This document shows positions 10,216 through 54,450 of a stretch of 64,000 nt of DNA, piece by piece; positions within the stretch are counted from its first letter, which is position 1; every line of letters begins with the position of its first letter. This DNA is from Escherichia phage vB_EcoS_HZ_ZJUN2. Below the pieces are notes generated by a model that was not told the origin of the DNA, did no database searches, and saw nothing but the letters and a program-made list of their open reading frames with translations. The translations under genes were made by a program, and so were the position numbers. The DNA lies in sequence record PP216084; one strand, given 5' to 3'.

Positions 10216-10294
10216 TTACATTCTCCTCTGTTTAATTTATAATACTATTATACAGAATTATATCAATATAGGCAATTAAATTTTTGGAGAACTT

Positions 10295-14026: not shown

Positions 14027-14053
14027 ATAAGTATAGGATGGGATACTACTCAG

Positions 14054-14578
14054 TTGGTATCCCATTCCTACATTTTAAAATCCCCTTTACAAATTCGATA
14101 CGATTATGTATACTATATTCATACAGTTGAGGAGAACACTATGGCAAGCAATGTAAAATATAAACGCGATGCTATATCCCTTATGAGAGACGGAATAAAA
14201 AGTCAATATAAAAAAGACTCTCAATGTGCTATCTGCGGTTGTGCTGAAGAATTAGAGCTTCATCATTACCATACGGTGTCTCTACTAGTTAAAAAATTTG
14301 CTAAAGAACTCCAATTGGATTTCACTGACGAAGAAATAGTCCTTTCAAATAGGACGGCATTCTATGATCGATATAGGCATGAGCTAGTAGAAGACACTGT
14401 TACCCTTTGTGTACACCATCACCAATTATTACATAAGGTTTACACAAAAGAACCTCCTTTATTTTCTGCTAATAAGCAAAAAGTGTGGGTTCAAAAGCAG
14501 AAAGACAAATTACAGAATCCTCAAGAAAAGACACAAGTCAAGACTGAAACAAAATCAGGATTCGCAAGGTTCTTATAA
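14054..14578 (+). CDS. HNH homing endonuclease, 174 aa
   Basis: CAICGC...HHYH...CVHHH zinc/HNH motifs; free-standing between terminase and portal. Confidence 0.7.
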   Translation: MVSHSYILKSPLQIRYDYVYYIHTVEENTMASNVKYKRDAISLMRDGIKSQYKKDSQCAICGCAEELELHHYHTVSLLVKKFAKELQLDFTDEEIVLSNRTAFYDRYRHELVEDTVTLCVHHHQLLHKVYTKEPPLFSANKQKVWVQKQKDKLQNPQEKTQVKTETKSGFARFL

Positions 14579-15795: not shown

Positions 15796-16286
15796 TTGAT
15801 TATAATGGTCTAAAGACCATTTTTGGTGAAAAACTACCAGAATCTCATATCTTCTTTGCTACGGTTGCCGCGCATAAGTATGTTCCTAGCTATGCTTTTC
15901 TGCGTAGAGAACTAGGACTTTCATCTGCGCATACTAACCGTAAAGTATGGAAGAAATTTGTAGAGGCATATGGTAAAGCAGTTCCTCCTGCTCCGCCTGC
16001 TCCGCCCTTAACTCTTTCTAAAGATTTAGCTGCTAGCATGTCCGTTGAAGAGGGAGCAGCATTAACACTTTCTGTTACTGCAACCGGCGGCACTGGTCCT
16101 TATACTTACGCATGGACTAAAGATGGTTCTCCTATTCCTGGTGCTTCAGGAGCTACCTATACTAAGCCTGCAGCAGCTACAGAGGATTCTGGAGCCTATA
16201 AAGTAACTGTAACAGATAGTAAGCAAGTAAGCAAGGACTCTGCTACATGTGCTGTGACAGTTAATCCTACTGTTCCTGGAGGCTAA
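15792..16286 (+). CDS. Capsid decoration protein pb10-like, 164 aa, C-terminal Ig-like domain
   Basis: PAPPAPP linker then Ig-like region (TLSVTATGGTGPYTYAWTKDGSPI). Confidence 0.6.
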   Translation: MIDYNGLKTIFGEKLPESHIFFATVAAHKYVPSYAFLRRELGLSSAHTNRKVWKKFVEAYGKAVPPAPPAPPLTLSKDLAASMSVEEGAALTLSVTATGGTGPYTYAWTKDGSPIPGASGATYTKPAAATEDSGAYKVTVTDSKQVSKDSATCAVTVNPTVPGG

Positions 16287-16289
16287 TAA

Positions 16290-16922
16290 ATGACACAAGC
16301 TGCTATTGACTATAACAAGTTAAAATCAGCACCGGTTCATTTAGATGCTTATATTAAATCTATTGATAGCGAATCCAAAGAGGGTGTTGTAAAAATCCGT
16401 GGATTCGCTAATACAATTAGTAAAGATCGCGCTGGTGATGTAATCCCTGCTTCGGCATGGAAAACATCTAATGCACTTGCTAACTACATGAAAAACCCGA
16501 TTATTCTTTTCGGACATGACCATCGTCGTCCAATCGGCAAGTGTATTGATCTTAACCCTACTGAAATGGGTCTCGAAATCGAATGCGAGATCTATGAAAG
16601 TTCTGATCCGGCTATCTTTTCACTAATTAAAAACGGTGTACTGAAAACTTTTAGTATCGGATTCCGCTGCCTAGATGCAGAGTGGGATGAAGCTACTGAT
16701 ATATTTATTATTAAAGATTTAGAACTATACGAAGTTTCGGTAGTTTCTGTACCTTGTAATCAGGACTCAACATTCAACCTCGCTAAGAGTATGAATGGTC
16801 ATGATTATACTGAATGGCGTAAATCTTTTACTGCAATAAGTTCTAAAGCTGTCCCAGCTCAAGAACGTAATCTTTCTGAACTAGAAAAACTTGCGATAGC
16901 TTTAGGCTACGTTAAAGAATAA
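16290..16922 (+). CDS. Prohead protease, 210 aa
   Basis: Position between portal and major capsid; His-rich FGHDHRRPIGK segment; size fits recalled T5 pb11. Confidence 0.6.
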   Translation: MTQAAIDYNKLKSAPVHLDAYIKSIDSESKEGVVKIRGFANTISKDRAGDVIPASAWKTSNALANYMKNPIILFGHDHRRPIGKCIDLNPTEMGLEIECEIYESSDPAIFSLIKNGVLKTFSIGFRCLDAEWDEATDIFIIKDLELYEVSVVSVPCNQDSTFNLAKSMNGHDYTEWRKSFTAISSKAVPAQERNLSELEKLAIALGYVKE

Positions 16923-16939
16923 CGGAGAATTATTTAAAA

Positions 16940-18316
16940 ATGACTATTGATATTAATAAGCTGAAAGAAGAACTTGGTCTGGGTGATCTGGCTAAATCTC
17001 TGGAAGGTCTGACCGCTGCTCAGAAAGCTGCTGAAGCTGAACGTATGCGTAAAGAGCAGGAAGAAAAAGAACTGGCTCGTATGAATGATCTGGTTTCTAA
17101 AGCAGTTGGCGAAGATCGTCAGAAGCTAGAAGAAGCTCTGGAACTGGTTAAATCCCTGGATGAAAAATCTAAAAAGAGCGCAGAACTGTTTGCACAGACT
17201 GTAGAAAAACAGCAGGAAACTATTGTTGGTCTTCAGGATGAAATTAAATCTCTACTAGCAGCTCGTGAAGGTCGTTCCTTTGTCGGTGATAGCGTAGCTA
17301 AAGCACTGTATGGTACTCAAGAAAACTTTGAAGACGAAGTGGAGAAACTGGTTCTTCTGTCCTATGTGATGGAAAAAGGTGTATTTGATACCGAACATGG
17401 CCAGAGACACCTGAAAGCTGTAAACCAGTCCTCTTCAGTAGAAGTTTCTAGTGAAAGCTATGAAACTATTTTCTCCCAGCGTATTATTCGTGACCTGCAG
17501 AAAGAACTAGTAGTTGGTGCTCTGTTTGAAGAACTGCCAATGTCCAGCAAAATTCTTACTATGCTGGTTGAACCAGATGCTGGTAAAGCTACTTGGGTAG
17601 ATGCTAATACATATGGTACTGATGCTACTACTGGTAACGAAGTTAAAGGTGCTCTGACTGAAATTCAGTTCAAAACCTATAAACTGGCTGCTAAGTCCTT
17701 CATTACTGATGAAACTGAAGAAGATGCAATCTTCTCCCTGCTACCATTGCTGCGTAAGCGTCTGATTGAAGCACACGCTGTTTCTATCGAAGAAGCGTTT
17801 ATGACTGGTGACGGTACTGGTAAGCCTAAGGGTCTGCTGAAACTGGCTGAAGGCGATAGTGCTAAAGTTATTACTGAAGCTAAAGCTGATGGTTCTGTTC
17901 TAGTAACTGCTAAAACTATCTCTAAACTGCGTCGTAAACTGGGCCGTCATGGTCTGAAACTGAGCAAACTGGTACTTATCGTATCTATGGATGCTTACTA
18001 CGATCTGCTGGAAGATGAAGAATGGCAGGATGTTGCCCAGGTTGGTAATGATGCTGTTAAACTGCAAGGTCAGGTTGGTCGTATTTACGGTCTGCCGGTT
18101 GTAGTTTCTGAGTTCTTCCCGGCTAAAGCTACCTCCGCAGAGTTCGCAGTTATTGTTTATAAAGATAACTTCGTAATGCCGCGTCAGCGTGCTGTTACTG
18201 TTGAACGTGAGCGCCAAGCTGGTAAACAGCGTGATGCGTACTACGTTACTCAGCGTGTTAACCTGCAACGTTACTTTAATAATGGCGTTGTATCTGGTGC
18301 TTACGCTGCATCTTAA
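16940..18316 (+). CDS. Major capsid protein precursor, 458 aa, with N-terminal coiled-coil scaffold domain
   Basis: N-terminal ~160 aa charged coiled-coil then HK97-like body; high-expression codon usage; strong terminator downstream. Confidence 0.8.
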   Translation: MTIDINKLKEELGLGDLAKSLEGLTAAQKAAEAERMRKEQEEKELARMNDLVSKAVGEDRQKLEEALELVKSLDEKSKKSAELFAQTVEKQQETIVGLQDEIKSLLAAREGRSFVGDSVAKALYGTQENFEDEVEKLVLLSYVMEKGVFDTEHGQRHLKAVNQSSSVEVSSESYETIFSQRIIRDLQKELVVGALFEELPMSSKILTMLVEPDAGKATWVDANTYGTDATTGNEVKGALTEIQFKTYKLAAKSFITDETEEDAIFSLLPLLRKRLIEAHAVSIEEAFMTGDGTGKPKGLLKLAEGDSAKVITEAKADGSVLVTAKTISKLRRKLGRHGLKLSKLVLIVSMDAYYDLLEDEEWQDVAQVGNDAVKLQGQVGRIYGLPVVVSEFFPAKATSAEFAVIVYKDNFVMPRQRAVTVERERQAGKQRDAYYVTQRVNLQRYFNNGVVSGAYAAS

Positions 18317-18335
18317 TACAGGCTTTTCAGCCGAT

Positions 18336-18362
18336 AAGGAGAGCTTCGGCTCTCCTTTTTAT
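18336..18362 (+). terminator. Intrinsic terminator with UUCG tetraloop after major capsid gene
   Basis: aaggagagc-ttcg-gctctcctt followed by TTTTTATT. Confidence 0.7.
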
Positions 18363-18374
18363 TGGGAAAAATAA

Positions 18375-18887
18375 ATGCAAATCATCACAGCCGAAGATTA
18401 TAGATTATACGGTAGTTTAAAACGACCTGAATTAGAGTCTGGTGTAGAAATGATGATTACTGCTGCCAATGCGCTGATTACGAGCCTTCTAGGCATGGAT
18501 GATGCTGATGCGGTAGACCAGTTAATCAATACAAAACCTACACGTAGGAAATATTTTCTGAGCTCACCCTCTGCTACCTCCGTAACTAAAGTGACGATTA
18601 ACGATAATGAGATTGACCCAGAGCAGTATAAGCTATACTCTGACGGTATTATCCTTCTCAAATTTAACCCTCCAGAAGGTTATATGGATGTAGCATATAC
18701 ACAAGGTGGATTTAACCCAGTGCCTGAAGATCTCAAACTTGCAGCGTGTATGCTAGTAGATCATTGGCATAAACAAGATTATCGCCAAGCTAAAACAATT
18801 GGTGGTGAAACAGTAACCTTCAATAGCACTAAGTCTGGTATTCCAGAGCATATTCGTACTATTATTGAAGTATATAGGAGAGTATAA
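18375..18887 (+). CDS. Head completion / connector protein (p144-like), 170 aa
   Basis: First gene after capsid terminator; synteny with recalled T5 order. Confidence 0.45.
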   Translation: MQIITAEDYRLYGSLKRPELESGVEMMITAANALITSLLGMDDADAVDQLINTKPTRRKYFLSSPSATSVTKVTINDNEIDPEQYKLYSDGIILLKFNPPEGYMDVAYTQGGFNPVPEDLKLAACMLVDHWHKQDYRQAKTIGGETVTFNSTKSGIPEHIRTIIEVYRRV

Positions 18888-19654
18888 TGTCTCTTTCCGA
18901 TCTAGCTAAACAAATTATTAAAGAGCAGCTAGATACTGCAGGACGATCTGAAAATAATAAGAATACTGTTGTGTACTCTGTTGAGACAGGGTTAAAAGAT
19001 CCTACCAGAGATGGTACTATTGCTCAAGTATCCTTTAAGTTTTCAAAACCCGTATCACAAGATCTTCTTGATGTTAGAACAGCCTCTATACTAAAAGCTG
19101 TATCCTCTAGTTTAGATCTTTCGGGAGATTTAGGTGCTCTAGAAAATCTTATACAGGCAACCGCAGGTAAAAAATCTGCTGTAGGTAAAAAACGTTCTAC
19201 AGGCAGAGTAGAGGTAAACTTTGGGGATCCTAGAGACATAGAGGATGGATACTCAGGTGCAATAACAGGTGCTTCCGGACGTTTCGTGTCTAATAGCAAT
19301 ATGAAGGTTATACTAGAGATAGTTGCTAAAGAGTACTTAATAAAGGATATGAAAAAGACAGGAGCACCACTAAAATTTAGAACAGGTCGCTTTGCAAACT
19401 CTTTAAAAATTAAAGATGTTATGCTCCGTGATTCTGAGGCTAGTAAAGGCTCCCCTGAATTGAACGTAACATATAATTATATGACTCGTCCATATTCTGT
19501 GTTCAACCCTGCAGTATCTACCTACAGGAGACTATCTCTACGACCTTATCCTGGTGCTAGAAACCCCCAAAAACTTATTGGTGAGGCTATAGCAAAAGCT
19601 GCAAGAGACCTGATTCACTCTAGATATAAAATCAAGGTTAATCAAGGAACATAA
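18887..19654 (+). CDS. Neck / tail-terminator-like protein (p143-like), 255 aa
   Basis: Synteny only. Confidence 0.4.
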   Translation: MSLSDLAKQIIKEQLDTAGRSENNKNTVVYSVETGLKDPTRDGTIAQVSFKFSKPVSQDLLDVRTASILKAVSSSLDLSGDLGALENLIQATAGKKSAVGKKRSTGRVEVNFGDPRDIEDGYSGAITGASGRFVSNSNMKVILEIVAKEYLIKDMKKTGAPLKFRTGRFANSLKIKDVMLRDSEASKGSPELNVTYNYMTRPYSVFNPAVSTYRRLSLRPYPGARNPQKLIGEAIAKAARDLIHSRYKIKVNQGT

Positions 19655-19657
19655 TAA

Positions 19658-20143
19658 ATGGATCATAGAACAAGTATTGCACAAGCTCTGGTTGACCGTA
19701 TATCTAAACAGTTGGATGGCTCTCAACCTGACGAATATTTTAATAACCTATATGGAAACGTTTCTCGTCAAACTTATAAATTTGAGGAAATACGAGAGTT
19801 TCCCTATGTGGCAGTTCATATTGGAACTGAAACTGGGCAGTATCTTCCTTCGGGCCAACAGTGGATGTTTTTAGAACTTCCAATCCTGGTGTACGATAAA
19901 GAGAAAACAGACATTCAAGAGCAACTTGAAAAACTCGTAGCGGATATAAAAACCGTTATTGACACAGGTGGAAATTTAGAATATACTGTTAGTAAACCTA
20001 ATGGATCGACCTTCCCATGTGAGGCAACTGATATGATCATTACATCAGTTAGTACAGATGAGGGTCTACTGGCCCCGTATGGTTTAGCAGAAATAAATGT
20101 AACAGTGAGGTATCAGCCTCCACGTAGGTCACTTCGCAGATAA
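19658..20143 (+). CDS. Tail completion protein (p142-like), 161 aa
   Basis: Synteny; immediately upstream of tail tube gene. Confidence 0.45.
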   Translation: MDHRTSIAQALVDRISKQLDGSQPDEYFNNLYGNVSRQTYKFEEIREFPYVAVHIGTETGQYLPSGQQWMFLELPILVYDKEKTDIQEQLEKLVADIKTVIDTGGNLEYTVSKPNGSTFPCEATDMIITSVSTDEGLLAPYGLAEINVTVRYQPPRRSLRR

Positions 20144-20169
20144 GTTACAGATTAGGAGAAAATAATTAA

Positions 20170-21567
20170 ATGTCTTTACAACTATTACGTAATACTCGAA
20201 TCTTCGTGTCTACGGTTAAGACCGGTCACAATAAGACCAACACGCAAGAGATTCTAGTTCAGGATGATATTTCTTGGGGTCAGGACAGTAACTCAACAGA
20301 TATTACTGTTAATGAAGCTGGTCCGCGTCCAACTCGTGGTTCTAAACGTTTTAACGACTCTTTAAACGCAGCTGAGTGGAGTTTCTCTACTTATATCCTG
20401 CCATATAAAGATAAAACTACTAATAAACAGATTGTTCCTGACTATATGTTATGGCACGCTCTTTCTAGTGGTAAAGCTCTTAACCTAGAAGGTGATACAG
20501 GGGCACATAATAACGAAACCAATTTTATGGTTAACTTTAAAGATAATGCGTACCACGAGCTGGCAATGCTGCATATCTACATCCTGACTGACAAAGCATG
20601 GAGTTATATCGATTCCTGTCAGATTAATCAGGCAGAAGTTAACGTTGATATTGAGGATATTGGTCGTGTAACTTGGTCTGGTAATGGTAATCAGCTTATT
20701 CCTCTGGATGCGCAACCATTTGATCCAGATGAGGTAGGTATTGATGATGAAACTTATATGACTATTCAGAGTTCTTATATCAAGAACAAATTGACTATCC
20801 TGAAAATTAAGGATATGGATTCTGGCAAAGCATACGATATTCCTATTACTGGTGGTACTTTCACTATTAATAACAACATCACGTACCTAACCCCGAATAT
20901 TATGTCTCGTGTTAATATTCCAATTGGTTCCTTTACTGGTGCTTTTGAATTAACTGGTTCATTAACTGCTTATCTGAATGATAAATCTCTTGGTTCTATG
21001 GAGCTGTACAAAGACCTTATCAAAACTCTGAAGGTAGTTAACCGCTTCGAAATTGCTCTAGTACTTGGTGGTGAATACGATGAAGAACGTCCTGCGGCTA
21101 TTCTGGTAGCTAAACAAGCACACGTTAACATTCCTACTATTGAAACTGATGATGTACTTGGTACTTCAGTAGAGTTTAAAGCTATTCCATCTGATCTGGA
21201 TGCTGGTGATGAAGGTTACTTGGGCTTTTCTAGTAAATATACCAAAACAACTATTAATAACTTGATTGTTAATGGTGATGGTGCTACTGATGCTGTAACT
21301 GCAATTACTGTTAAATCTGCTGGTCAGGCTACTTCTGTTCGGACTGGACAAACTCTTCTGATGAGCGTTGAAGTTACTCCTTCTTCCGCAAAGAATAAGG
21401 AAGTTACTTGGGCTATCACTGCCGGTGATGCAGCTACAATTGATCCAGAATCTGGCCTATTAACTGCGGACACCACTAAAACTGGTGAAGTAACTGTAGA
21501 AGCTACTGCTAAAGATGGTTCTGGAGTTAAAGGTACTAAACAGATTACTGTAACAGCAGGTGGCTAA
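20170..21567 (+). CDS. Major tail tube protein pb6-like, 465 aa, C-terminal Ig-like (Big_2-type) domain
   Basis: C-terminal segment VTAITVKSAGQATSVRTGQTLLMSVEVTPSSAKNKEVTWAI typical of Big_2; size fits T5 pb6. Confidence 0.7.
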   Translation: MSLQLLRNTRIFVSTVKTGHNKTNTQEILVQDDISWGQDSNSTDITVNEAGPRPTRGSKRFNDSLNAAEWSFSTYILPYKDKTTNKQIVPDYMLWHALSSGKALNLEGDTGAHNNETNFMVNFKDNAYHELAMLHIYILTDKAWSYIDSCQINQAEVNVDIEDIGRVTWSGNGNQLIPLDAQPFDPDEVGIDDETYMTIQSSYIKNKLTILKIKDMDSGKAYDIPITGGTFTINNNITYLTPNIMSRVNIPIGSFTGAFELTGSLTAYLNDKSLGSMELYKDLIKTLKVVNRFEIALVLGGEYDEERPAAILVAKQAHVNIPTIETDDVLGTSVEFKAIPSDLDAGDEGYLGFSSKYTKTTINNLIVNGDGATDAVTAITVKSAGQATSVRTGQTLLMSVEVTPSSAKNKEVTWAITAGDAATIDPESGLLTADTTKTGEVTVEATAKDGSGVKGTKQITVTAGG

Positions 21568-21571
21568 TTAA

Positions 21572-22471
21572 ATGTACTACTCTCTAATGAGAGAGTCAAA
21601 AGTTATAGTTGAGTATGATGGTAGGGCATTTCATTTTGATGCCCTATCAAACTATGATATACAGACTTCCTACGAGGAATTCAAGACTCTTCGTAGGACT
21701 GTTCATCGTAGAACTAACTATGCAGACTCTATTATAAATGCTCAAACTCCCTCTTCTATCTCTCTAGCAGTAAATTTTAGTAATACTCTTACTGAAGCTA
21801 ACTTCTTTGAATGGTTAGGTTTTGATAGAAAAGGTAATACTTTCTTACTCCCACTATATAGTAGTAATATTGAACCTATTATGTTCAATATCTATATAGT
21901 AAATAAAGATAATAACTGTGTATATTTTGAAAACTGTTATGTATCTACGGTAGATTTTTCTTTAGATAAGAACATACCAATTCTTAATGTTGGTATTGAA
22001 TCAGGAAAATTTTCCGAAGTATCTACATATAGAGAAGCAGCTTCTATTATACAGGGTGAAGTAATGTCTTACAGCCCAGTAATAGCTTCTACTAATGGCA
22101 GCATCTTACCCGGTCTTATTTCTGCCTCTTTATCCTTCCAACAGCAGTGCTCCTGGAGAGAGGATAAGAGTGTTTTTGATATAAATAAAATTTATAATAA
22201 TAAAAGAGCCTATGTAACTGAAATGAATGCTTCGGCAACCATTTCTCTATACTACTTAAAACGTTTTGCAGGAGATATGGTTTATAATGTAGAACCGGAG
22301 ATAGATGTACCTTTAACGATAAGAAATAATAATATTTCTATAGATTTTCCTTCAGCACGTATTACAAAACGCCTAGAGTTCTCAGATGTGTATAGAGTTG
22401 AGTGGGATATTATACCTACTGCTTCTTCAGACCCAGTGAGAATAGATTTCTTTGGAGAAATTAAAAAATGA
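21572..22471 (+). CDS. Hypothetical tail-associated protein (p140-like), 299 aa
   Basis: Synteny between tail tube and chaperone genes. Confidence 0.4.
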   Translation: MYYSLMRESKVIVEYDGRAFHFDALSNYDIQTSYEEFKTLRRTVHRRTNYADSIINAQTPSSISLAVNFSNTLTEANFFEWLGFDRKGNTFLLPLYSSNIEPIMFNIYIVNKDNNCVYFENCYVSTVDFSLDKNIPILNVGIESGKFSEVSTYREAASIIQGEVMSYSPVIASTNGSILPGLISASLSFQQQCSWREDKSVFDINKIYNNKRAYVTEMNASATISLYYLKRFAGDMVYNVEPEIDVPLTIRNNNISIDFPSARITKRLEFSDVYRVEWDIIPTASSDPVRIDFFGEIKK

Positions 22472-22872
22472 TTAATTTAAAAGATATTACTCTTGATACT
22501 CGTACTATTACTCTTTCCTACCCAGGTATGCCGAACTTTAAACTAGAACTTAACTATATGTCTCGTGCTACCTCTAAACGTGTTATTTCCTCTGCTAAAC
22601 GCGATGAATGGGTTAACGGTACTTTGGTTCAGGTACAGGATGATGATAAGTTTATTGAAGCTTTCGTCGATGCTGCGATTAAAGGTTGGACTGGTTTGAC
22701 TGTAGGTGACGTTGAAAAACTGATGCTGATTGAAGCAGATGCTGATCCTGAGACTGAAGTTCCTTTTAGCCGCGATAATGCTGTAATGCTCATGCAGAAC
22801 TCTGCTGCGTTTGATTCTTGGATCAACCAGACAGTGTTCCACTTAGACACTTTTCGTAGCCCAAAAGCGTAA
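22468..22872 (+). CDS. Tail assembly chaperone (G-like), 134 aa
   Basis: Acidic small protein immediately upstream of tape measure region; ends in A-rich stretch CCCAAAAGCGTAA. Confidence 0.5.
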   Translation: MINLKDITLDTRTITLSYPGMPNFKLELNYMSRATSKRVISSAKRDEWVNGTLVQVQDDDKFIEAFVDAAIKGWTGLTVGDVEKLMLIEADADPETEVPFSRDNAVMLMQNSAAFDSWINQTVFHLDTFRSPKA

Positions 22873-22933
22873 AGAACTCCTAGATGCTGTTGCTGATTTT
22901 GCAGATAAATGTATTAAAAGCTCAGCATCTAAA

Positions 22934-23302
22934 ATGACCAAACAACAATATTTAATACTTTGTGAGTCAATGGGTATAGAACCTGATCCTAAGGCTATGC
23001 CTGTTGAACTCGAAGATTTTCCACCTATTGTATCTATTAGTATGAATATTTATAACAGTCTAATTGATTGTTTCATACCAGGTGACTTTCCTATTTTTAT
23101 AGGTAAAGATAAAGCTGCTCTAGGTGTTTTATTTGATATTTATGGGATTACTGATCCTATAGAAAAAGAATTTGTTCTACACATTATCAATATATTTGAT
23201 GCTAAAGCTGTAGATGCTGCACGTAAACGTGCTGAGAAGCATAAACCGCAAAACGGGAGAATTCCTAACGTTAAGCCACATGCTAAATCTCGAGCACGGT
23301 AA
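22934..23302 (+). CDS. Tail assembly chaperone extension (T-like), 122 aa; may be expressed as a +1 frameshift fusion
   Basis: ORF is in the +1 frame relative to 22468-22872 and is open from 22847, overlapping the upstream gene by 23 nt. Confidence 0.4.
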   Translation: MTKQQYLILCESMGIEPDPKAMPVELEDFPPIVSISMNIYNSLIDCFIPGDFPIFIGKDKAALGVLFDIYGITDPIEKEFVLHIINIFDAKAVDAARKRAEKHKPQNGRIPNVKPHAKSRAR

Positions 23303-23337
23303 AAGTTTCCTCCAATGGGCGTTCCACGATGAGGCTT

Positions 23338-23369
23338 GGCTCTGGGTGATTTGCCCAGAGCCTTTTTTA
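23338..23369 (+). terminator. Intrinsic terminator before tape measure gene
   Basis: ggctctggg-tgatttg-cccagagcc then TTTTTT; followed by the conserved TTTATTGGGAAAATAAA element. Confidence 0.65.
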
Positions 23370-23384
23370 TTGGGAAAATAAAAC

Positions 23385-26300
23385 ATGACTGATAAGCTAA
23401 TACGAGAATTACTAATAGACGTTAAACAGAAGGGGGCAACTCGTACTGCAAAGTCTATTGAAAACGTATCTGATGCGTTGGAAAACGCTGCTGCTGCTTC
23501 CGAACTGACAAATGAGCAGTTAGGTAAAATGCCCAAAACCCTTTACTCCATTGAGAGGGCAGCGGATAGAGCAGCGAAAAGTCTTACTAAAATGCAGGCA
23601 AGCAGAGGTATGCTTAGTGTTACTAAATCTATAAATGATATAGGAGCTAAGTTAGATGATCTCGCTATTACAATGATTGAAGTAGCAGATAAGTTAGAAG
23701 TCGGATTTGATGGGGTTTCTAGATCTGTTAAAACAATGGGTAATGATGTTGCAGCTGCAACAGAAAAAGTCCAGGATAGATTATATGATACTAATAGAGC
23801 GTTAGGTGGCACAGCTAGAGGTTTTAACGACACTGCTGGTGCCGCAACTAGGGCTTCTAGAGCTATAGGTAATACTTCTGGTTCAGCTCGTGGCGCTACT
23901 CGTGATTTTGCAGCAATGGCTAAAGTAGGTGGTAGTTTACCTATACTATACGCAGCTTTTGCTTCCAACATCTTCGTTTTGCAATCTGCATTCGAACAAC
24001 TTAAACTAGGTGATCAGCTAAATCGTCTAGAAAAATTTGGTGTTATAGTAGGTACTCAGACAGGTACTCCTGTTCAGTCCCTTGCTAGATCACTACAAGA
24101 GGCAGCTGGCTATGCAATCTCTTTTGAAGAAGCTATGAGGCAAGCATCCTCAGCGTCCGCTTATGGATTTGATGCTGAACAACTTAATAAATTTGGTTTA
24201 GTAGCTCGTCGTGCTGCTGCTGTTCTTGGCGTTGATATGACTGATGCACTTAATCGTGTAATTAAGGGTGTATCTAAACAAGAAATCGAACTTCTGGATG
24301 AGCTTGGTGTTACTATTCGTCTTAACGATGCTTATGCTGATTACGTTAAACAGCTAAATGCTGCAAACACAGGTATAACGTATAATATTAATAGCCTTAC
24401 TACCTTCCAGAAACAGCAAGCGTATGCTAATGCTGTTATAGCAGAATCTACTAAACGTTTTGGTTACTTAGATGAAGTTTTACGTGCTACTCCGTGGGAA
24501 CAGTTTGCTGCTAACGCAGATGCTGCACTAAGAACAATACAACAAGCTGCTGCTAAGTACTTAGGTCCAGTAATTGATGCTATCAACACAGTATTTTATA
24601 CTTCTCAAGCTTCTGTATCTGCTGAAGCAGCTAGAGCTCAAGAAAAAACTAATAGACAGATAGATCCTACCAATGTTGGTGCTGTTGCTCTAAGTTTGGC
24701 CGCTTCTGAAGAAGGTTATAATAAAGCTCTAGATATGTATAAGGAATCTCTTGATAAGCGTAATAAGCTAAAATCTGAGTTTGATAAACGAATGGAACAA
24801 GCAGATTTCTATACAAAATTAGCTATACGTCAAGTTGGTGAAGGTATTCCTGTTGGTCTTGCAGCAGCAGGTGCTTCGGAAGCTAATAAACAATTTGTAG
24901 CAGAAACTGCAGCTATGGGTCTACAAGTAGCTAGACTTGGTAAGGAAGTAGAGGATTCTACAGAGAACCTCAATGCTTGGAAATCAGCGTATCAAGCTGC
25001 TGGGGCTGCTGCTGCAAAGGCTAGTCCAGAGTTTCAGAAGCAAATTAATCTACAGAGAGATACTACTGATCCTGGTGCTGTATACGATTTTAATTCTACT
25101 GTATTAAAAGGTCTAACTGAGCAACAGAAAGCGTACAATCAGACCAAGAAAACTGCTAGTGACTTAGCTAATGATATACAGAACGTTGCTCAGAATACAG
25201 ATACCGCTGCTAAAACTAGTGCTGCTTTAGCAGATGCTATAAAAAACATAGAATCTCTATCTCTAGGTACTGGTAAGAGTGCTGATGAGTACGTTAAAAA
25301 TCTCAATCTAGGCTACAATACTCTGTCTGAAATGAAAACTGCGTCTCAGGCCTTATCTGAATATGTTAAACTAACTGGTAATGAAACTAAAAATCAGCTA
25401 GCAGTTCAACAGAAGATAGCTGATGTATACAACCAAACTAAGGATAAAGAAAAGGCACAGGAAGCAGGTAGACGTTTAGAGCTCCAACAGTTAGAAGAGC
25501 AAGAAGCTGCTTTACGCCGTGTTCTTCAAACAAACCAGGGGAATAAGGCTGTTGAGAAAGAAATTGAAAAAATCCAGCTGGAGAAACTTAAACTTACCAA
25601 TCAGGGTATGGAAGCCCAGAAGAAGGTCAAGGATTACACAGATAAAATTCTTGGTGTAGACCGTGAGATAGCTCTTCTGAATGACCGTACTATGACTAGC
25701 ACTCAGTATAGATTAGCACAGTTAAGGTTAGAACTAACCATAGAGGAAGAAAAATACGAGTGGTACTTAAAACAAGCGGATAAACAAAAAGAGGCAGAAC
25801 AGTCTAGACGTGCTCAAGCACAGATAAGTAGAGAGTTATGGGAAGCAGAGAAACAAGCTACTGCTACTCATGTATCCGCCCTTATGGATGCCTTAGAGGT
25901 TAGCCAAACGCAGAGAAATGTCACTGGTCAGTCACAGATTCTCACTGAAAGGTTATCTATTCTGCAGCAGCAGCTGGAACTGTCTAAAGGTAATACTGAA
26001 GAAGAAATTAAATATCGTAATGAGATTTATAAAACTTCAGCAGCCTTAGAGCAGCTTAGAAAACAGAGAGATAGCCAGATGCAGCAACAGGTAGGGTCTT
26101 CTGTAGGTGCTGTATATACTCCTACAACTGGACTATCTGGAGAAGATAAAGATTTTGCTGATATGGGAAATAGAATGGCTTCTTATGATCAGGCAATTTC
26201 TAAACTATCTGAGCTAAACTCTGAAGCAACCGCTGTAGCTCAAAGCATGGGTAACCTAACCAATGCTATGATTCAATTCTCTCAGGGATCTTTAGATACT

Positions 26301-27065
26301 ACATCTATGATTGCTTCCGGTATGCAGACTGTGGCCTCTATGATTCAATATAGTACTAGTCAACAGGTTAGTGCAATTGATCAGGCTATTGCAGCAGAGC
26401 AGAAACGAGATGGTAAATCTGAAGCATCTAAAGCTAAACTGAAAAAGTTAGAAGCTGAAAAGCTGAAGATTCAACAAGACGCAGCTAAGAAGCAGATTAT
26501 CATCCAAACTGCAGTAGCTGTAATGCAGGCGGCAACAGCTGTTCCATACCCGTTCTCTATTCCTCTGATGGTAGCGGCAGGTTTAGCAGGTGCTCTGGCC
26601 CTCGCCCAAGCATCCTCTGCATCGAGTATGTCGAGTATTGCTGATTCGGGAGCTGATACAACTAGTTACTTAACCTTAGGAGAGCGTCAAAAGAATATAG
26701 ATGTGTCCATGTCTGCTAATGCAGGTGAACTATCTTATATTCGTGGCGATCAAGGTATAGGTAGTGCCAACTCTTTCGTTCCTCGTGCTGAGGGTGGTAA
26801 TATGTACCCAGGGGTTAGTTACCAAATGGGTGAACATGGTACAGAAGTAGTTACCCCTATGGTTCCTATGAAAGCTACACCTAATGATGAGCTAAAAACC
26901 TCATCTAACTCAACTTCAGGAAGACCTATCATCCTGAATATTAGTGCTATGGATGCTGCAAGTTTTAGAGAGTTTGCTTCTAGTAATAGTGGTGCTCTAA
27001 GAGACGCAGTAGAATTAGCTCTGAATGAGAACGGTGCTAGTCTGAAAACATTAGGAAATTATTAA
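23385..27065 (+). CDS. Tape measure protein pb2-like, 1226 aa
   Basis: Very long Ala/Gln/Lys-rich coiled-coil ORF with hydrophobic C-terminal segment; position between chaperones and distal tail protein. Confidence 0.85.
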   Translation: MTDKLIRELLIDVKQKGATRTAKSIENVSDALENAAAASELTNEQLGKMPKTLYSIERAADRAAKSLTKMQASRGMLSVTKSINDIGAKLDDLAITMIEVADKLEVGFDGVSRSVKTMGNDVAAATEKVQDRLYDTNRALGGTARGFNDTAGAATRASRAIGNTSGSARGATRDFAAMAKVGGSLPILYAAFASNIFVLQSAFEQLKLGDQLNRLEKFGVIVGTQTGTPVQSLARSLQEAAGYAISFEEAMRQASSASAYGFDAEQLNKFGLVARRAAAVLGVDMTDALNRVIKGVSKQEIELLDELGVTIRLNDAYADYVKQLNAANTGITYNINSLTTFQKQQAYANAVIAESTKRFGYLDEVLRATPWEQFAANADAALRTIQQAAAKYLGPVIDAINTVFYTSQASVSAEAARAQEKTNRQIDPTNVGAVALSLAASEEGYNKALDMYKESLDKRNKLKSEFDKRMEQADFYTKLAIRQVGEGIPVGLAAAGASEANKQFVAETAAMGLQVARLGKEVEDSTENLNAWKSAYQAAGAAAAKASPEFQKQINLQRDTTDPGAVYDFNSTVLKGLTEQQKAYNQTKKTASDLANDIQNVAQNTDTAAKTSAALADAIKNIESLSLGTGKSADEYVKNLNLGYNTLSEMKTASQALSEYVKLTGNETKNQLAVQQKIADVYNQTKDKEKAQEAGRRLELQQLEEQEAALRRVLQTNQGNKAVEKEIEKIQLEKLKLTNQGMEAQKKVKDYTDKILGVDREIALLNDRTMTSTQYRLAQLRLELTIEEEKYEWYLKQADKQKEAEQSRRAQAQISRELWEAEKQATATHVSALMDALEVSQTQRNVTGQSQILTERLSILQQQLELSKGNTEEEIKYRNEIYKTSAALEQLRKQRDSQMQQQVGSSVGAVYTPTTGLSGEDKDFADMGNRMASYDQAISKLSELNSEATAVAQSMGNLTNAMIQFSQGSLDTTSMIASGMQTVASMIQYSTSQQVSAIDQAIAAEQKRDGKSEASKAKLKKLEAEKLKIQQDAAKKQIIIQTAVAVMQAATAVPYPFSIPLMVAAGLAGALALAQASSASSMSSIADSGADTTSYLTLGERQKNIDVSMSANAGELSYIRGDQGIGSANSFVPRAEGGNMYPGVSYQMGEHGTEVVTPMVPMKATPNDELKTSSNSTSGRPIILNISAMDAASFREFASSNSGALRDAVELALNENGASLKTLGNY

Positions 27066-27070
27066 AACTG

Positions 27071-27099
27071 GAGGAGGACTTTGAGTCCTCCTTTTCTTT
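27071..27099 (+). terminator. Intrinsic terminator after tape measure gene
   Basis: ggaggac-tttga-gtcctcc then TTTTCTTT. Confidence 0.6.
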
Positions 27100-27118
27100 A
27101 TGGAAAAATAAAAATTTC

Positions 27119-27147
27119 TTGATAAAATTTTCTAATACTATTATAAT
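27119..27147 (+). promoter_or_regulatory. Sigma70-like promoter candidate TTGATA-17-TATAAT
   Basis: Hexamers at 27119-27124 and 27142-27147; upstream of pb9-like gene with AGAGGAGAAAT RBS. Confidence 0.4.
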
Positions 27148-27174
27148 ATTGTTATTAAAGAGGAGAAATTAACT

Positions 27175-27789
27175 ATGAGATTACCAGACCCATACACGAA
27201 TCCAGAACTTTCAGGATTAGGATTCGAAAGTGTTAACCTGATTGATAATGACCCAGTAATTCGTGATGAGTTACCAAATGGTAAAGTTAACGAAGTTAAG
27301 GTATCCGCTCAATACTGGGGTATAAATATTTCTTATCCAGAATTATTTCCAGATGAATATAGTGTTCTAGATGCTTTTATTCTAGAATACAAAAGGACTG
27401 GTGGTTATATAGATGTTATATTACCTCAATACGAAGCTTTTAGAGTTAGAGGTAATACTAGCCTAGTAAATATACCTGCTGGACAGAAGGGTTCTAATAT
27501 AACTATGGATACAAAAGGACTTCTCACAGGTATTCCAAAACCGGGGGATCTATTTAAGCTATCTAACCATCCAAAAGTATATAAAATAACATCATTCAAT
27601 AAATCAGGCAATACGTGGTCTATAAACTTATACCCTGATTTATTTATAACTACTACTGGGGCTGAGAAACCAGTGTTTAACGGAATACTATTTAGAACAA
27701 AACTCATGAATGGTGATGCTTTCGGATCTACATTAAATAATAACGGAACATATTCCGGCATCTCATTAAATTTACGGGAAAGTTTATGA
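27175..27789 (+). CDS. Distal tail protein pb9-like, 204 aa
   Basis: Position directly after tape measure; length equals recalled T5 pb9. Confidence 0.6.
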   Translation: MRLPDPYTNPELSGLGFESVNLIDNDPVIRDELPNGKVNEVKVSAQYWGINISYPELFPDEYSVLDAFILEYKRTGGYIDVILPQYEAFRVRGNTSLVNIPAGQKGSNITMDTKGLLTGIPKPGDLFKLSNHPKVYKITSFNKSGNTWSINLYPDLFITTTGAEKPVFNGILFRTKLMNGDAFGSTLNNNGTYSGISLNLRESL

Positions 27790-30635
27790 AGAAAATACTA
27801 GATAGTGCTAGAAACTACTTAAAAAATAATAGCAGAATAAAAACTGCTAGTCTAATTTCCCTAGAATTACCTGGCTCTACTGGTACTAGTACTGCTTTTA
27901 TTTATTTAACTGATTATTTTAGAGATGTACTATATAATGGTATTTTGTACCAGGCTGGTAAGGTTAAGTCCATTAGCACACATAAACAAAATAGAGATTT
28001 ATCTATTGGCAGTCTATCTTTTACTATTACAGGTACAGCGCAGGATGAAGTACTGAAACTAGTGCAGAATGGTGTGTCCTTTTTAGATAGACTAGTATCA
28101 ATCCACCAAGCAATTATTACAGAGGATGGTTCTATTTTACCTGTAGACCCAGACACAAATGGCCCATTATTATATTTTAGAGGGAGAATTACCGGCGGGG
28201 GTATTAAGGACAACATTAGTACTTCTGGGGTTGGAACCTCTACAATTACTTGGAATTGTTCTAACCAATTCTATGATTTTGATAGGGTTAATGGTAGATT
28301 TACTGATGATGCTTCTCATAGGGGGCTTGAGGTTGTAGCAGGACAATTAGTTCCATCTAACGGGGCTAAAAGACTTGAGTACCAAGAAGATTATGGGTTC
28401 TTTCATGCCAATAAAAGCATCTCTATTCTAGCAAAGTATCAGGTACAGGAAGAAAGATACAAGCTAAAGTCTAAGAAAAAACTATTTGGTTTATCTAGAA
28501 GCTATAGTCTTAAAAAGTATTATGAGACTGTTACTAAAGAAATAGATATAGATTTTAACCTTGCTGCTAAGTATATACCAGTAGTTTATGGTGTACAGAA
28601 AATACCGGGAATACCTATTTTTGCGGATACGGAACTACACAATCCTAATATAGTTTACGTAGTATATGCTTTTGCTGAAGGAGAGATAGACGGTTTTCTT
28701 GACTTTTCCTTCGGGGATAACCCTATGATTTGTATGGACTCTAATGATAGCTCTGCTAGAACCTGTTTCGGTGTTAAAAAAGTAGCAGGAGACACCATGC
28801 AAAGAATAGCATCAGGAGTATCTTCTAGTAGTCCTTCTGTGCATGGTCAGGAATATAAGTATAATGATGGTAATGGTGATATAAGGATTTGGACTTACCA
28901 TGGAAAAGCTGATCAAACTGCTTCTGAAGTATTAGTAGACATAGCGAAAGAACGTGGGTTCTACCTTCAAAATATGAACGGTAATGGGCCCGAGTACTGG
29001 GATACTAGGTATAAGCTACTAGATACTGCATACGCGGTAGTACGCTTTACTATTAATGAAAATAGAACTGAGATCCCAGAAGTTAGTGCTGAGATTCAGG
29101 GTAAGAAGATAAAAATCTATCATTCTGATGGTAGAGTAACTGCTAATAGCACTAGTTTAAATGGTATTTGGCAAACACTTGATTACTTAACTTCAGATAG
29201 ATACGGTGCTAACATTACTATTGATCAGTTTCCTCTTCAACAATTGATACAGGAAGCTGCTATCCTAGATATTATAGATGAATCTTACCAAGTATCCTGG
29301 CAGCCATACTGGAGATACGTTGGGTGGACTGATCCATTAGCAGAAAATAGACAAATAGTACAAATGAATACTATTCTAGATACATCTGAATCAGTATTTA
29401 AAAACGTGCAAGGTTTACTAGAATCCTACGGTGGGGCTATTAACAACTTATCTGGCCAGTATAGGATTACTGTAGAAAAATACTCTAATACTCCATTAGA
29501 GATTAATTTTCTGGATACTTATGGTGATTTAGAGCTATCAGATACTACTGGTAGAAATAAATTCAACTCAGTTCAAGCATCTATCGTAGATCCTGCTCTT
29601 AGCTGGAAAACTAACTCTATTACCTTTTACAACTCTAAATATAAAGAGCAAGATAAAAATTTAGACAAAAAATTACAATTATCTTTTGCAAATATAACTA
29701 ACTACTATACTGCTAGAAGTTTTGCAGACAGAGAGCTTAAAAAATCTAGATATTCTAGAACCCTCTCATTTTCTTTACCATACCAATTCATTGGTATTGA
29801 GCCTAATGATGCTATTGCATTTACATACGACCGTTATGGATGGGATAAGAAATACTTTTTAGTAGATGAAGTAGAAAACTCTAGAGAAGGAAAGATAAAC
29901 GTCACCCTACAGGAATATGGAGAAGATGTATTTATCAACTCTGATCAAGTAGATAATAGCGGTAATGATATACCAGATATTAGTAACAACGTTCTTCCTC
30001 CTAGAGATTTTAAATATACTCCTACACCCGGTGGTTTAGTTGGTTCTATAGGAAAAAATGGTGAGTTATCTTGGCTTCCAAGCTTAACTAATAACGTAGT
30101 TTATTACTCTATCGTGCATTCCGGTCATGCTGAGCCTTATATTGTGCAGCAACTAGAAACAAATCCCAATGAACGCATGATCCAAGAGATAATTGGAGAA
30201 CCTGCAGGTTTAGCAATATTTGAAATAAGGGCTGTGGATATAAACGGTAGAAGAAGTTCTCCAGTAACATTATCTATAGAACTTAACTCTGCTAAAAACC
30301 TAAGCGTAGTGTCTAATTTTAGAGTAACTAATACGGCCTCTGGGGATGTAACTGAGTTTGTCGGCCCAGATGTAAAACTAGCTTGGGATAGGATACCGGA
30401 AGAAGATATAATAGAAAGTATATTCTATACTCTGGAGATCTATGATTCTCAGAATAGAATGCTAAGAAGTGTACGCATTGAAAATCAGTATACTTATGAC
30501 TATTTATTAATGTATAATAAGGCAGATTTTGCTCTTCATAACAGTGGTGCTCTAGGGATCAATAGAAAACTATATTTTCGTATTAGAGCAGAAGGAGATG
30601 ATGGAGAACAGTCTGTGGAGTGGGCATCCATTTAA
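27786..30635 (+). CDS. Baseplate hub / tail tip protein pb3-like, 949 aa
   Basis: Position after distal tail protein; length equals recalled T5 pb3. Confidence 0.65.
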   Translation: MKKILDSARNYLKNNSRIKTASLISLELPGSTGTSTAFIYLTDYFRDVLYNGILYQAGKVKSISTHKQNRDLSIGSLSFTITGTAQDEVLKLVQNGVSFLDRLVSIHQAIITEDGSILPVDPDTNGPLLYFRGRITGGGIKDNISTSGVGTSTITWNCSNQFYDFDRVNGRFTDDASHRGLEVVAGQLVPSNGAKRLEYQEDYGFFHANKSISILAKYQVQEERYKLKSKKKLFGLSRSYSLKKYYETVTKEIDIDFNLAAKYIPVVYGVQKIPGIPIFADTELHNPNIVYVVYAFAEGEIDGFLDFSFGDNPMICMDSNDSSARTCFGVKKVAGDTMQRIASGVSSSSPSVHGQEYKYNDGNGDIRIWTYHGKADQTASEVLVDIAKERGFYLQNMNGNGPEYWDTRYKLLDTAYAVVRFTINENRTEIPEVSAEIQGKKIKIYHSDGRVTANSTSLNGIWQTLDYLTSDRYGANITIDQFPLQQLIQEAAILDIIDESYQVSWQPYWRYVGWTDPLAENRQIVQMNTILDTSESVFKNVQGLLESYGGAINNLSGQYRITVEKYSNTPLEINFLDTYGDLELSDTTGRNKFNSVQASIVDPALSWKTNSITFYNSKYKEQDKNLDKKLQLSFANITNYYTARSFADRELKKSRYSRTLSFSLPYQFIGIEPNDAIAFTYDRYGWDKKYFLVDEVENSREGKINVTLQEYGEDVFINSDQVDNSGNDIPDISNNVLPPRDFKYTPTPGGLVGSIGKNGELSWLPSLTNNVVYYSIVHSGHAEPYIVQQLETNPNERMIQEIIGEPAGLAIFEIRAVDINGRRSSPVTLSIELNSAKNLSVVSNFRVTNTASGDVTEFVGPDVKLAWDRIPEEDIIESIFYTLEIYDSQNRMLRSVRIENQYTYDYLLMYNKADFALHNSGALGINRKLYFRIRAEGDDGEQSVEWASI

Positions 30636-36470: not shown

Positions 36471-36513
36471 GAGTATAGGGGAGTAATTCTCCCCTATTTA
36501 CTAAGGAAATACT

Positions 36514-44162: not shown

Positions 44163-44168
44163 TATTCA

Positions 44169-54423: not shown

Positions 54424-54450
54424 ATTTCTTCCTTATCAATTTATATAAAT

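What the first reader, a model, noticed from the sequence alone, without database searches (positions are those of the whole stretch)
18336..27115. Recurrent terminator plus TTTATTGGGAAAATAAA element inside the late operon
The hairpins after the major capsid gene (18336-18362), before the tape measure gene (23338-23369) and after it (27071-27099) are each followed by a near-identical TTTATTGG(G)AAAA(A)TAAA(A) segment that runs straight into the next start codon, with no classical SD. The pattern suggests a combined terminator / late-promoter or translation-enhancer unit setting structural protein stoichiometry.
Basis: seen in the sequence. Interest (0 to 1): 0.4.

Follow-up and report, generated by a model that had tools for sequence, protein, structure and literature searches.

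The report
Leaky terminators abutting weak ribosome sites
In this T5-like phage, the repeated "element" is the T-run of an ordinary intrinsic terminator joined directly to a short, weak, A-rich ribosome-binding site; the terminators are already annotated in phage T5, so the finding is real but ordinary.

Summary
The window is a T5-like phage (Tequintavirus; 97.5% identical to Salmonella phage L6jm). All three hairpins are real. They are the best terminator-like sites on the coding strand of the late operon.

They sit at exactly the positions where the T5 reference record annotates "putative rho-independent transcription terminators": after the major head gene, before the tape measure gene and after it.

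At sites 1 and 2 the shared TTTATTGGGAAAA(A)TAAA is the terminator U-tract (TTTATT), then a 4-nt weak Shine-Dalgarno (GGGA, -4.2 kcal/mol), then an A-rich spacer that runs into the ATG. In more distant relatives the same layout is kept, but the GGG position holds canonical SDs (GGAG, GAGG, AAGGAG, GGAGG).

At site 3 the similar segment does not reach a start codon. It is the AT-rich stretch just upstream of the known T5 sigma-70 promoter P-G25. A strong SD follows, and the ATG lies about 60 nt further on.

Neither site 1 nor site 2 contains a promoter. The best reading is a set of leaky internal terminators, each followed by a weak RBS. These would step down expression from abundant proteins (capsid, tail tube, chaperones) to rare ones (head completion protein, tape measure protein).

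Novelty is low. A conserved CCUCC-containing block upstream of the site 2 hairpin remains unexplained.

The parts
18321..18332 (+). Small conserved hairpin GGCT-TTTC-AGCC between the major head gene stop (TAA 18314-18316) and the S1 terminator
   Evidence: It is kept as GGC(N)..GCC in L029, L057 and L058, and downstream of the 714-nt insert in L006/L022.
18336..18357 (+). S1 terminator hairpin AAGGAGAGC-UUCG-GCUCUCCUU, a C(UUCG)G tetraloop
   Evidence: dG -14.5. The orthologous T5 site is annotated as a terminator. Distant relatives carry different stems at the same place. L006/L022 show a compensatory G-C to A-U change.
18358..18363 (+). S1 U-tract TTTATT (5 T in total after CTCC here, 6 in most relatives, 13 in L011)
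18364..18377 (+). S1 RBS: weak SD GGGA, spacer AAAATAA with an in-frame TAA at -3..-1, then the ATG of the head completion protein gene
   Evidence: One search gives -4.2 kcal/mol for the SD. Pfam PF24163 covers residues 2-170 of the product, which fixes the start codon. The same position holds canonical SDs in L057-L074.
19959..19987 (+). Sigma-70 promoter TTGACA-17-TATACT, orthologous to T5 P-J5. It restarts transcription for the tail tube gene downstream of S1.
23306..23337 (+). Conserved non-coding block TTTCCTCCAATGGGCGTTCCACGATGAGGCTT upstream of the S2 hairpin. It contains the anti-SD-like CCUCC. Function unknown; it may sequester the SD.
23338..23362 (+). S2 terminator hairpin GGCUCUGGGU-GAUUU-GCCCAGAGCC
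   Evidence: dG -19.1. Six of its 10 pairs have compensatory changes, 93.8% of cells are paired, and 0/500 shuffles reach that. T5 annotates a terminator here.
23363..23371 (+). S2 U-tract TTTTTTATT
   Evidence: It is invariant in relatives.
23372..23387 (+). S2 RBS: weak SD GGGA, spacer AAATAAAAC with an in-frame TAA at -6..-4, then the ATG of the tape measure gene
   Evidence: One search gives -4.2 kcal/mol. Relatives carry GAGG, AGGTGA or GGAGG at this position. The N-terminus M-x-D-K-L is conserved.
27070..27094 (+). S3 terminator hairpin GGAGGAGGACU-UUG-AGUCCUCCUU after the tape measure stop (27063-27065)
   Evidence: Stems covary in relatives: GGGAGGAC in L029, GGGGC in L031, and others. 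T5 annotates a terminator here.
27095..27118 (+). S3 T-run plus A-rich segment TCTTTATGGAAAAATAAAAATTTC. It serves as the terminator tail and as the AT-rich upstream (UP-element position) flank of the next promoter.
   Evidence: It lies inside the 75-nt stretch that T5 annotates as promoter P-G25. AT-rich runs are kept here in all relatives.
27119..27147 (+). Sigma-70 promoter TTGATA-17-TATAAT, orthologous to T5 late promoter P-G25
   Evidence: (11 of 12 matches).
27157..27177 (+). Strong RBS AAAGAGGAGAAATTAACT-ATG of the distal tail protein (pb9) gene
   Evidence: -9.1 kcal/mol; Pfam pb9 domains; the same 21-mer is used as a vector RBS.

Best explanation
The three sites are leaky rho-independent terminators that divide the T5-type late operon into expression tiers.

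Sites S1 and S2. The 'recurrent element' is not a separate module. It is the terminator's U-tract (TTT(TTT)ATT) fused directly to a minimal ribosome-binding site: a 4-nt SD (GGGA), an 8-10 nt A-rich spacer and the AUG.
- Most polymerases stop after the abundant products. These are the major head protein before S1, and the tail tube and chaperones before S2.
- Only read-through transcripts carry the next gene. That gene is the head completion protein after S1 and the tape measure protein after S2.
- The next gene is then translated from a weak SD. Output is therefore cut at both the transcriptional and the translational level.

Site S3. The terminator closes the tape measure unit. The similar T-run/A-run is the AT-rich upstream flank of the sigma-70 promoter P-G25. 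That promoter restarts transcription for the distal tail genes, which have a strong SD.

Shown here: the anatomy, the conservation, the stem covariation, the SD energies and the orthology to T5 annotations.

Inferred: that termination is partial, and that the weak SD lowers translation rather than being offset by the U/A-rich context.
For: 1. Identity of the window. It is a Tequintavirus. T5 RefSeq annotates terminators at all three orthologous positions and promoter P-G25 directly after the third.

2. Terminator anatomy. Each site has a GC-rich stem followed by a T-run on the coding strand just after a stop codon.

3. RNA structure under selection.
- The S2 stem has 6 of 10 pairs with compensatory changes, and 0/500 shuffles reach that.
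- About 10 different stem sequences occupy the S1 position in relatives whose major head protein is 46-69% identical. All of them fold and all are followed by T5-7.
- The S3 stems also differ between relatives.

4. The GGG occupies the SD slot.
- In relatives, the same position after the same T-run carries AGAGG, GGAG, GAGG, AAGGAG or GGAGG at S1.
- At S2 it carries GAGG, AGGTGA, AAGGA or GGAGG.

5. SD strength. Both genes give -4.2 kcal/mol, at the weak end of the operon. The weak end also includes other low-copy proteins: portal at -4.1 and pb3 with GGGAAAG at -4.3. The distal tail protein gives -9.1 and other genes reach -11.6.

6. Start codons are fixed. An in-frame stop lies immediately upstream of each. 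Pfam coverage of the S1 gene product begins at residue 2.

7. No + strand promoter scoring >=10/12 lies between S1 and P-J5, or between S2 and the tape measure ATG. Those genes therefore need read-through.

8. Purifying selection. Against L029, intergenic identity is 0.84 (S1), 0.83 (S2) and 0.71 (S3). Four-fold degenerate sites in the flanking genes score 0.62 and 0.39.

9. The S1 and S2 tails are no more alike within a genome than between genomes (5.78 vs 6.36 edits, p=0.12). This fits a shared generic template rather than a special co-evolving element.
Against: - No transcript-end, read-through or translation data for any T5-like phage were found. Termination efficiency and RBS strength are therefore predictions.
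- The 21-23 nt identity between S1 and S2 in most T5-group genomes is more than a T-run plus a weak SD strictly needs. The near-invariance of the S1 hairpin down to 56-57% identity of the major head protein (L075, L066) is also more than expected.
- A U-rich tract upstream of a weak SD can enhance translation through ribosomal protein S1 (established knowledge). If so, 'weak RBS' may be wrong in vivo.
- The conserved block upstream of S2 is not explained by this model.
Confidence: 0.78

Rival explanations
1. Long-range clamp, or translational coupling. The shared AUUGGGA segment forms the 3' strand of a helix that encloses the terminator hairpin. Its partner at S1 would be the head gene stop region UCUUAAUA. 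At S2 the partner would be the conserved UUCC-A-CGAUGAGG or UUUCCUCC block. The SD of the low-copy gene would then be sequestered unless upstream translation, or a factor, opens the helix.
For: - MFE folds draw exactly such helices at S1 and S2.
- RNAalifold draws UUUCC:GGRAA around the S2 hairpin.
- An invariant CCUCC-containing block sits upstream of S2 in every relative that has the hairpin. CCUCC can pair with any SD variant.
Against: - Both strands are invariant within the T5 group, so no covariation is possible.
- The helices are G.U-rich and are not predicted in more distant relatives.
- Mean unpaired probability of the RBS is 0.35-0.5, so the RBS is not strongly closed.
- The S1 and S2 partners are unrelated sequences.
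- UAAU/AUUG pairing is nearly unavoidable next to a U-tract.
Confidence: 0.1
2. Sequence-specific operator. The near-identical 21-23 nt at S1 and S2 would be bound by one trans-acting factor, a phage translational repressor in the manner of T4 RegA, or a DNA-binding dimer recognising the TTTATT-N5-AATAAA dyad. This factor would co-regulate the head completion and tape measure genes.
For: - S1 and S2 are identical over 21-23 nt in most T5-group genomes. In L016-L020 they are identical right through the ATG.
- The motif occurs only at these two sites in the genome.
- Both intergenic regions are more conserved than synonymous sites in the flanking genes.
Against: - Distant relatives keep the layout but not the sequence.
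- There is no within-genome co-variation of the two sites (p=0.12).
- A dyad arises automatically when a T-run is followed by an A-run.
- No candidate regulator is known for T5.
Confidence: 0.07
3. One reading: the shared segment is itself a late promoter, or a combined terminator-promoter, at all three sites.
For: At S3 a strong promoter does follow the terminator within 25 nt. The segment lies where an UP element would be.
Against: - At S1 and S2 there is no -10/-35 pair, and there is no room for one: only 17-22 nt separate the stem from the ATG.
- T5 late promoters are sigma-70 type (PMC7472727).
- The T5 annotation has no promoter at either site.
- A transcript starting inside the segment would lack an RBS.
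Confidence: 0.03
4. The hairpins act mainly as mRNA stability or processing elements. They would serve as 3' protective stem-loops for the upstream messages after endonucleolytic cutting in the AU-rich segment, rather than as transcription terminators.
For: The C(UUCG)G hairpin at S1 is of the extra-stable class found in phage intercistronic regions (recalled from Tuerk et al. 1988). A single-stranded AU-rich stretch follows each hairpin.
Against: T-runs directly abutting the stems are conserved in every relative. Termination needs these, but 3' protection does not. The two roles are not mutually exclusive.
Confidence: 0.1

Closest known systems
Phage T5 late-region annotation: three 'putative rho-independent transcription terminators' (after pb8, after T5.142, after pb2) and promoters P-J5 and P-G25 (NC_005859)
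   Same: The positions are orthologous. The S1 and S3 sequences are near-identical (98% and 95% intergenic identity).
   Different: In T5 an endonuclease gene (T5.141) is inserted right after the TTTTTTATT of S2. The GGGAAAA...ATG junction with the tape measure gene is therefore lost there. The window keeps what is probably the ancestral, uninterrupted junction.
Phage T7 terminator T-phi after the major capsid gene 10 (from general knowledge)
   Same: It is an intrinsic-type terminator placed just after the most abundant structural gene. Partial read-through supplies the downstream, lower-copy tail genes.
   Different: It acts on T7 RNA polymerase, not on host sigma-70 RNAP. The next gene's RBS is not fused to the U-tract.
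E. coli rpsU-dnaG-rpoD operon: internal terminator T1 plus a poor dnaG RBS (from general knowledge)
   Same: An internal leaky terminator combined with a weak RBS steps expression down from an abundant to a rare protein within one operon.
   Different: It is a cellular operon. The spacing between terminator and RBS is larger and there is no sequence relationship.
C(UUCG)G extra-stable tetraloop hairpins of phage T4 intercistronic regions (Tuerk et al. 1988, recalled from memory)
   Same: S1 has GC-UUCG-GC. So does its exact second copy at 57103-57124 (- strand) and the hairpin at 44144-44163 (- strand).
   Different: Here each is followed by a T-run and sits at an annotated terminator position.
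U-rich/A-rich translational enhancers recognised by ribosomal protein S1, e.g. the atpE leader (from general knowledge)
   Same: A U-run lies immediately 5' of a weak SD, with an A-rich spacer.
   Different: Here the U-run is first of all the terminator tail. An enhancer effect is untested.

Membership tests
Rho-independent (intrinsic) terminator | GC-rich stem-loop of about 5-14 bp with a short loop | tested here: met
   S1 has 9 bp and a UUCG loop (-14.5). S2 has 10-11 bp (-19.1). S3 has 10-11 bp (-14.8).
Rho-independent (intrinsic) terminator | U-rich tract immediately 3' of the stem | tested here: met
   The tracts are TTTATT (S1), TTTTTTATT (S2) and TT(T)TCTTTAT (S3). The T-run is kept in all relatives.
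Rho-independent (intrinsic) terminator | Structure, not sequence, is conserved (compensatory changes) | tested here: met
   S2 has 6 of 10 pairs with double changes. S1 and S3 show many different stems at the same position in distant relatives. Within the T5 group the S1 stem is nearly invariant.
Rho-independent (intrinsic) terminator | RNA 3' ends at the U-tract in vivo or in vitro | not testable with these tools
   No transcript-end data for T5-like phages were found.
Sigma-70 promoter (T5 P-G25) at S3 | -35 and -10 hexamers with 17-bp spacing, orthologous to a characterised promoter | tested here: met
   TTGATA-17-TATAAT scores 11/12. It aligns with the T5 'promoter P-G 25' feature.
Promoter inside the shared segment at S1/S2 | -10 (and -35) elements upstream of a usable RBS | tested here: not met
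   There is no promoter-like hit in 18336-18375 or 23338-23385. T5 has no promoter annotation at either site.
Shine-Dalgarno-led RBS at S1/S2 | Purine-rich stretch complementary to the 16S 3' end, 5-10 nt before the AUG | tested here: met
   GGGA lies 7-9 nt before the ATG and gives -4.2 kcal/mol, which is weak. The position is orthologous to canonical SDs in relatives.
Known structured RNA family (Rfam) | Match at or above the gathering score | tested here: not met
   Only sub-threshold chance hits appear in 16000-28500.

The most novel reading that the evidence does not exclude
The invariant U-tract/GGGA/A-rich module could be part of a translational switch. At S2 this would also involve the invariant CCUCC-containing block on the other side of the terminator hairpin. 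In read-through RNA the terminator hairpin would bring an anti-SD mimic next to the SD of the tape measure gene. At S1 it would bring the head gene stop region next to the SD of the head completion gene. Synthesis of the rare protein would then be gated by upstream translation or by a chaperone or other factor, not merely lowered.
Probability: 0.1. Interest if true: 0.45.

Novelty: already known. Interest (0 to 1): 0.15.

Why it matters
This is mainly useful as annotation. It explains how a T5-type late operon can produce hundreds of capsid and tail-tube subunits but only a few head completion and tape measure molecules from one transcription direction.

It also shows that the 'motif' is a composite of two ordinary signals. 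For phage engineering, the practical point is that the tape measure and head completion genes have no promoter of their own. They depend on read-through of a terminator whose T-run length varies between isolates.

The only open biological point is the conserved CCUCC block before the tape measure terminator.

Tried and rejected
- More copies of the motif. I searched the window and the remaining 50 kb of the nearest genome and found none beyond S1 and S2. It is therefore not a dispersed regulatory motif.
- Rfam. A scan of 16-28.5 kb gave only sub-threshold noise.
- Concerted evolution or gene conversion between S1 and S2. Within-genome and cross-genome edit distances in 9 lineages do not differ significantly (p=0.12).
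- Promoter at S1/S2. No consensus hit was found.
- Coding explanation for the conserved block upstream of S2. All three frames were translated, and a 1-nt indel in L029 breaks any frame. Rejected.
- Antiterminator pairing of that block with the S2 stem. Rejected, because the stem covaries while the block is invariant.
- Small upstream ORF (GUG..UAA) through the S2 hairpin, read directly from the sequences. It is not conserved in L029. Rejected.
- RNAalifold on the S1 regions of distant relatives. I used per-sequence folds instead.
- Literature. I searched for T5 late transcript mapping and RNA-seq of T5-like phages and found nothing usable. The BF23 gene 24/25 paper is not held. The BF23 genome paper gave no nick consensus to test against the S2 block.
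- Terminator score. The d-score uses a formula recalled from d'Aubenton-Carafa et al. and is only indicative.
Full report
**What the window is.** The segment 16940-19654 is 97.5% identical to Salmonella phage L6jm, and 456 T5-like phage records match it. The gene order on the + strand is that of T5:
- decoration protein, protease, and major head protein (16940-18316, 458 aa);
- head completion protein (18375-18887; Pfam PF24163 covers residues 2-170);
- neck and tail terminator genes;
- tail tube (20170-21567);
- two tail assembly chaperone ORFs;
- tape measure protein (23385-27065, 1226 aa);
- distal tail protein pb9 (27175-27789), followed by pb3 and later genes.

**The observation.** They are among the four best terminator-like hits on the coding strand in 9-29 kb.
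- S1: AAGGAGAGC-TTCG-GCTCTCCTT, then TTTATT-GGGA-AAAATAA-ATG.
- S2: GGCTCTGGGT-GATTT-GCCCAGAGCC, then TTTTTTATT-GGGA-AAATAAAAC-ATG.
- S3: GGAGGAGGACT-TTG-AGTCCTCCTT, then TTCTTTATGGAAAAATAAAAATTTC.

The S3 segment does not reach a start codon. It is followed by TTGATA-17-TATAAT (27119-27147), then the strong SD GAGGAG, and the ATG only at 27175.

The S1/S2 17-mer at <=2 mismatches is expected 0.08 times in the window and occurs only at these two sites. It has no further copy in another 50 kb of the nearest genome. The observation therefore holds for S1 and S2. For S3 it holds only loosely: two indels are needed, and the segment is not adjacent to a start codon.

**What is already known.** The T5 reference record annotates a 'putative rho-independent transcription terminator' at each of the three orthologous positions. 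It also annotates 'promoter P-G 25' immediately after the third terminator and 'promoter P-J 5' inside the tail terminator gene. These promoters correspond to window 27119-27147 and 19959-19987. T5 late promoters are ordinary strong sigma-70 promoters (PMC7472727). The terminators and the S3 promoter are thus not new.

**What the shared segment is.** I collected 32 loci through the protein of 21572-22471 and 62 through an alignment of major head proteins.

Within the T5 group both junctions are almost invariant. In several genomes S1 and S2 are identical over 23 nt including the ATG.

In relatives whose major head protein is 46-69% identical, the layout is still kept: stop codon, GC-rich hairpin, T5-7 A T(T), purine block, 6-10 nt A-rich spacer, ATG. 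The hairpin sequence differs from lineage to lineage. The purine block becomes a canonical SD:
- at S1: AGAGG (L057), GGAG (L058, L065), GAGG (L059), AAGGAG (L069, L073), GGAGG (L074);
- at S2: GAGG (L058), AAGGA (L059), AGGTGA (L031), GGAGG (L076).

The GGG(A) of the window is therefore the SD slot, and the TTTATT before it is the terminator tail.

Duplex energies with the 16S 3' end are -4.2 kcal/mol for both genes. The operon ranges from -0.1 to -11.6. Other weak sites belong to the portal (-4.1) and pb3 (GGGAAAG, -4.3). The gene after S3 has -9.1. In-frame stop codons directly upstream fix both start codons.

**Evidence that the hairpins are selected as RNA structures.** For S2, 6 of 10 stem pairs show compensatory double changes across 8 sequences. 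93.8% of cells are paired, no shuffle out of 500 reaches this, and slid controls collapse. For S1 and S3 the stems differ between lineages, but every one folds and is followed by a T-run. L006/L022 show a G-C to A-U change at S1.

Intergenic identity to L029 is 0.84 (S1), 0.83 (S2) and 0.71 (S3). Four-fold degenerate sites in the flanking genes score 0.62 and 0.39.

**Mechanism.**
- No promoter-like site of >=10/12 lies between S1 and P-J5, or between S2 and the tape measure ATG. The head completion, neck and tape measure genes must therefore be transcribed by read-through.
- The sites sit where virion copy number falls: from hundreds of head subunits to a dodecameric connector component, and from the tail tube and chaperones to a few tape measure molecules (established T5 structural knowledge).
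- The simplest model is a two-level step-down, partial termination followed by a weak RBS.
- After the tape measure gene, S3 ends that unit, and P-G25 with a strong RBS restarts expression for the tail tip genes.
- Whether the U-run/A-run context raises translation through protein S1 cannot be decided here.

**Rivals.** MFE folds place each terminator hairpin inside a longer helix that uses AUUGGGA as one strand. That helix is G.U-rich and has no covariation. It is not predicted in distant relatives, and the RBS stays 35-50% unpaired.

A sequence-specific operator is suggested by the 21-23 nt identity. However, the two tails are no more alike within genomes than between them, and the sequence is not kept in distant relatives. 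A promoter within the segment at S1 or S2 is excluded by the anatomy.

**Unexplained.** A 32-nt non-coding block (23306-23337, TTTCCTCCAATGGGCGTTCCACGATGAGGCTT) lies just upstream of the S2 hairpin.
- Its UUUCCUC(C) core is present in every relative that has the hairpin, down to 47% identity of the major head protein.
- It is unique in the genome.
- It does not pair with the covarying terminator arms.
- CCUCC is the anti-SD core, so the block could sequester the tape measure SD across the hairpin, or pair locally with GAGG. This is a hypothesis only.

**Verdict.** The feature is real but ordinary, and the kind is already annotated in T5. The 'element' is a terminator tail fused to a weak RBS at S1 and S2. 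At S3 it is a terminator tail plus the AT-rich flank of promoter P-G25.

Noticed in passing
window 23306-23337: A conserved non-coding block (TTTCCTCCAATGGGCGTTCCACGATGAGGCTT) with an anti-SD-like CCUCC core lies upstream of the S2 terminator. It is kept across T5-like phages down to 47% identity of the major head protein, is unique in the genome and is not coding. It may sequester the tape measure SD.
   Followed up: partly
window 57103-57124 (- strand); also 44144-44163 (- strand); L034:49452: An exact second copy of the 22-nt S1 hairpin (AAGGAGAGCTTCGGCTCTCCTT) sits after a minus-strand gene, with the UUCG loop in the minus sense. Further C(UUCG)G hairpins of the same style occur elsewhere. 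The phage reuses one terminator design.
   Followed up: partly
L027/L033 (T5) at S2; L006, L014, L022 at S1: Mobile-gene insertions occur exactly at these junctions. The T5 endonuclease gene T5.141 sits right after the TTTTTTATT of S2. A roughly 714-nt insert lies between the head gene stop and the S1 hairpins in three relatives. In L006 it encodes a 190-aa ORF with CapR-homology and treble-clef zinc-finger domains.
   Followed up: partly
window 22852-23302: The second chaperone ORF (22934-23302) has essentially no SD (-0.1 kcal/mol). Its frame stays open back into the end of the first chaperone ORF (22468-22872) in the +1 frame. This suggests a G/GT-type frameshift fusion that is +1 or -2 rather than -1. 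The CCCAAAA heptamer there would give only a 7-residue -1 tail.
   Followed up: partly
window 27157-27177: AAAGAGGAGAAATTAACTATG, the RBS of the distal tail protein gene downstream of P-G25, is letter-for-letter the RBS string quoted in 14 papers on expression constructs. It looks like the pQE-type 'RBSII' (that attribution is from memory).
   Followed up: partly
window 36475-36516: A fourth hairpin abuts an RBS: ATAGGGGAG-TAATT-CTCCCCTAT, then TTACTAAGGAAATACT-ATG, between the long tail fibre gene and the next ORF. It has only a poor T-run on the + strand.
   Followed up: no
S1 T-run, window 18353-18360 and relatives: The length of the T-run after the S1 stem varies between isolates: 5 in the window, 6 in most relatives and 13 in L011. 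This may tune read-through.
   Followed up: no
window 14036-14067: A 13-bp hairpin (GGATGGGATACTACTCAGTTGGTATCCCATTC) lies just after the ORF ending at 14026. It has no proper T-run and is followed by a promoter-like TTTACA-17-TATACT at 14086-14114.
   Followed up: no
window 45304-45466, 49885-49946, 54443-54489, 56067-56129, 57898-57944, 58908-58970, 62466-62512; also 10223-10285: Families of 47-63 nt repeats have promoter-like cores (..TATAATATT.. / TTGC..) on the minus strand, presumably the repeated T5 early promoters. A similar copy lies upstream of the first late gene.
   Followed up: no
window 10-192 and 3791-3920: Tandem or interspersed repeats occur in the left part of the window: ATTTAAGAAGTGGAATGA-type units, and 15/31-nt TTCTTATAGTTATTATT units. 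Their function was not examined.
   Followed up: no
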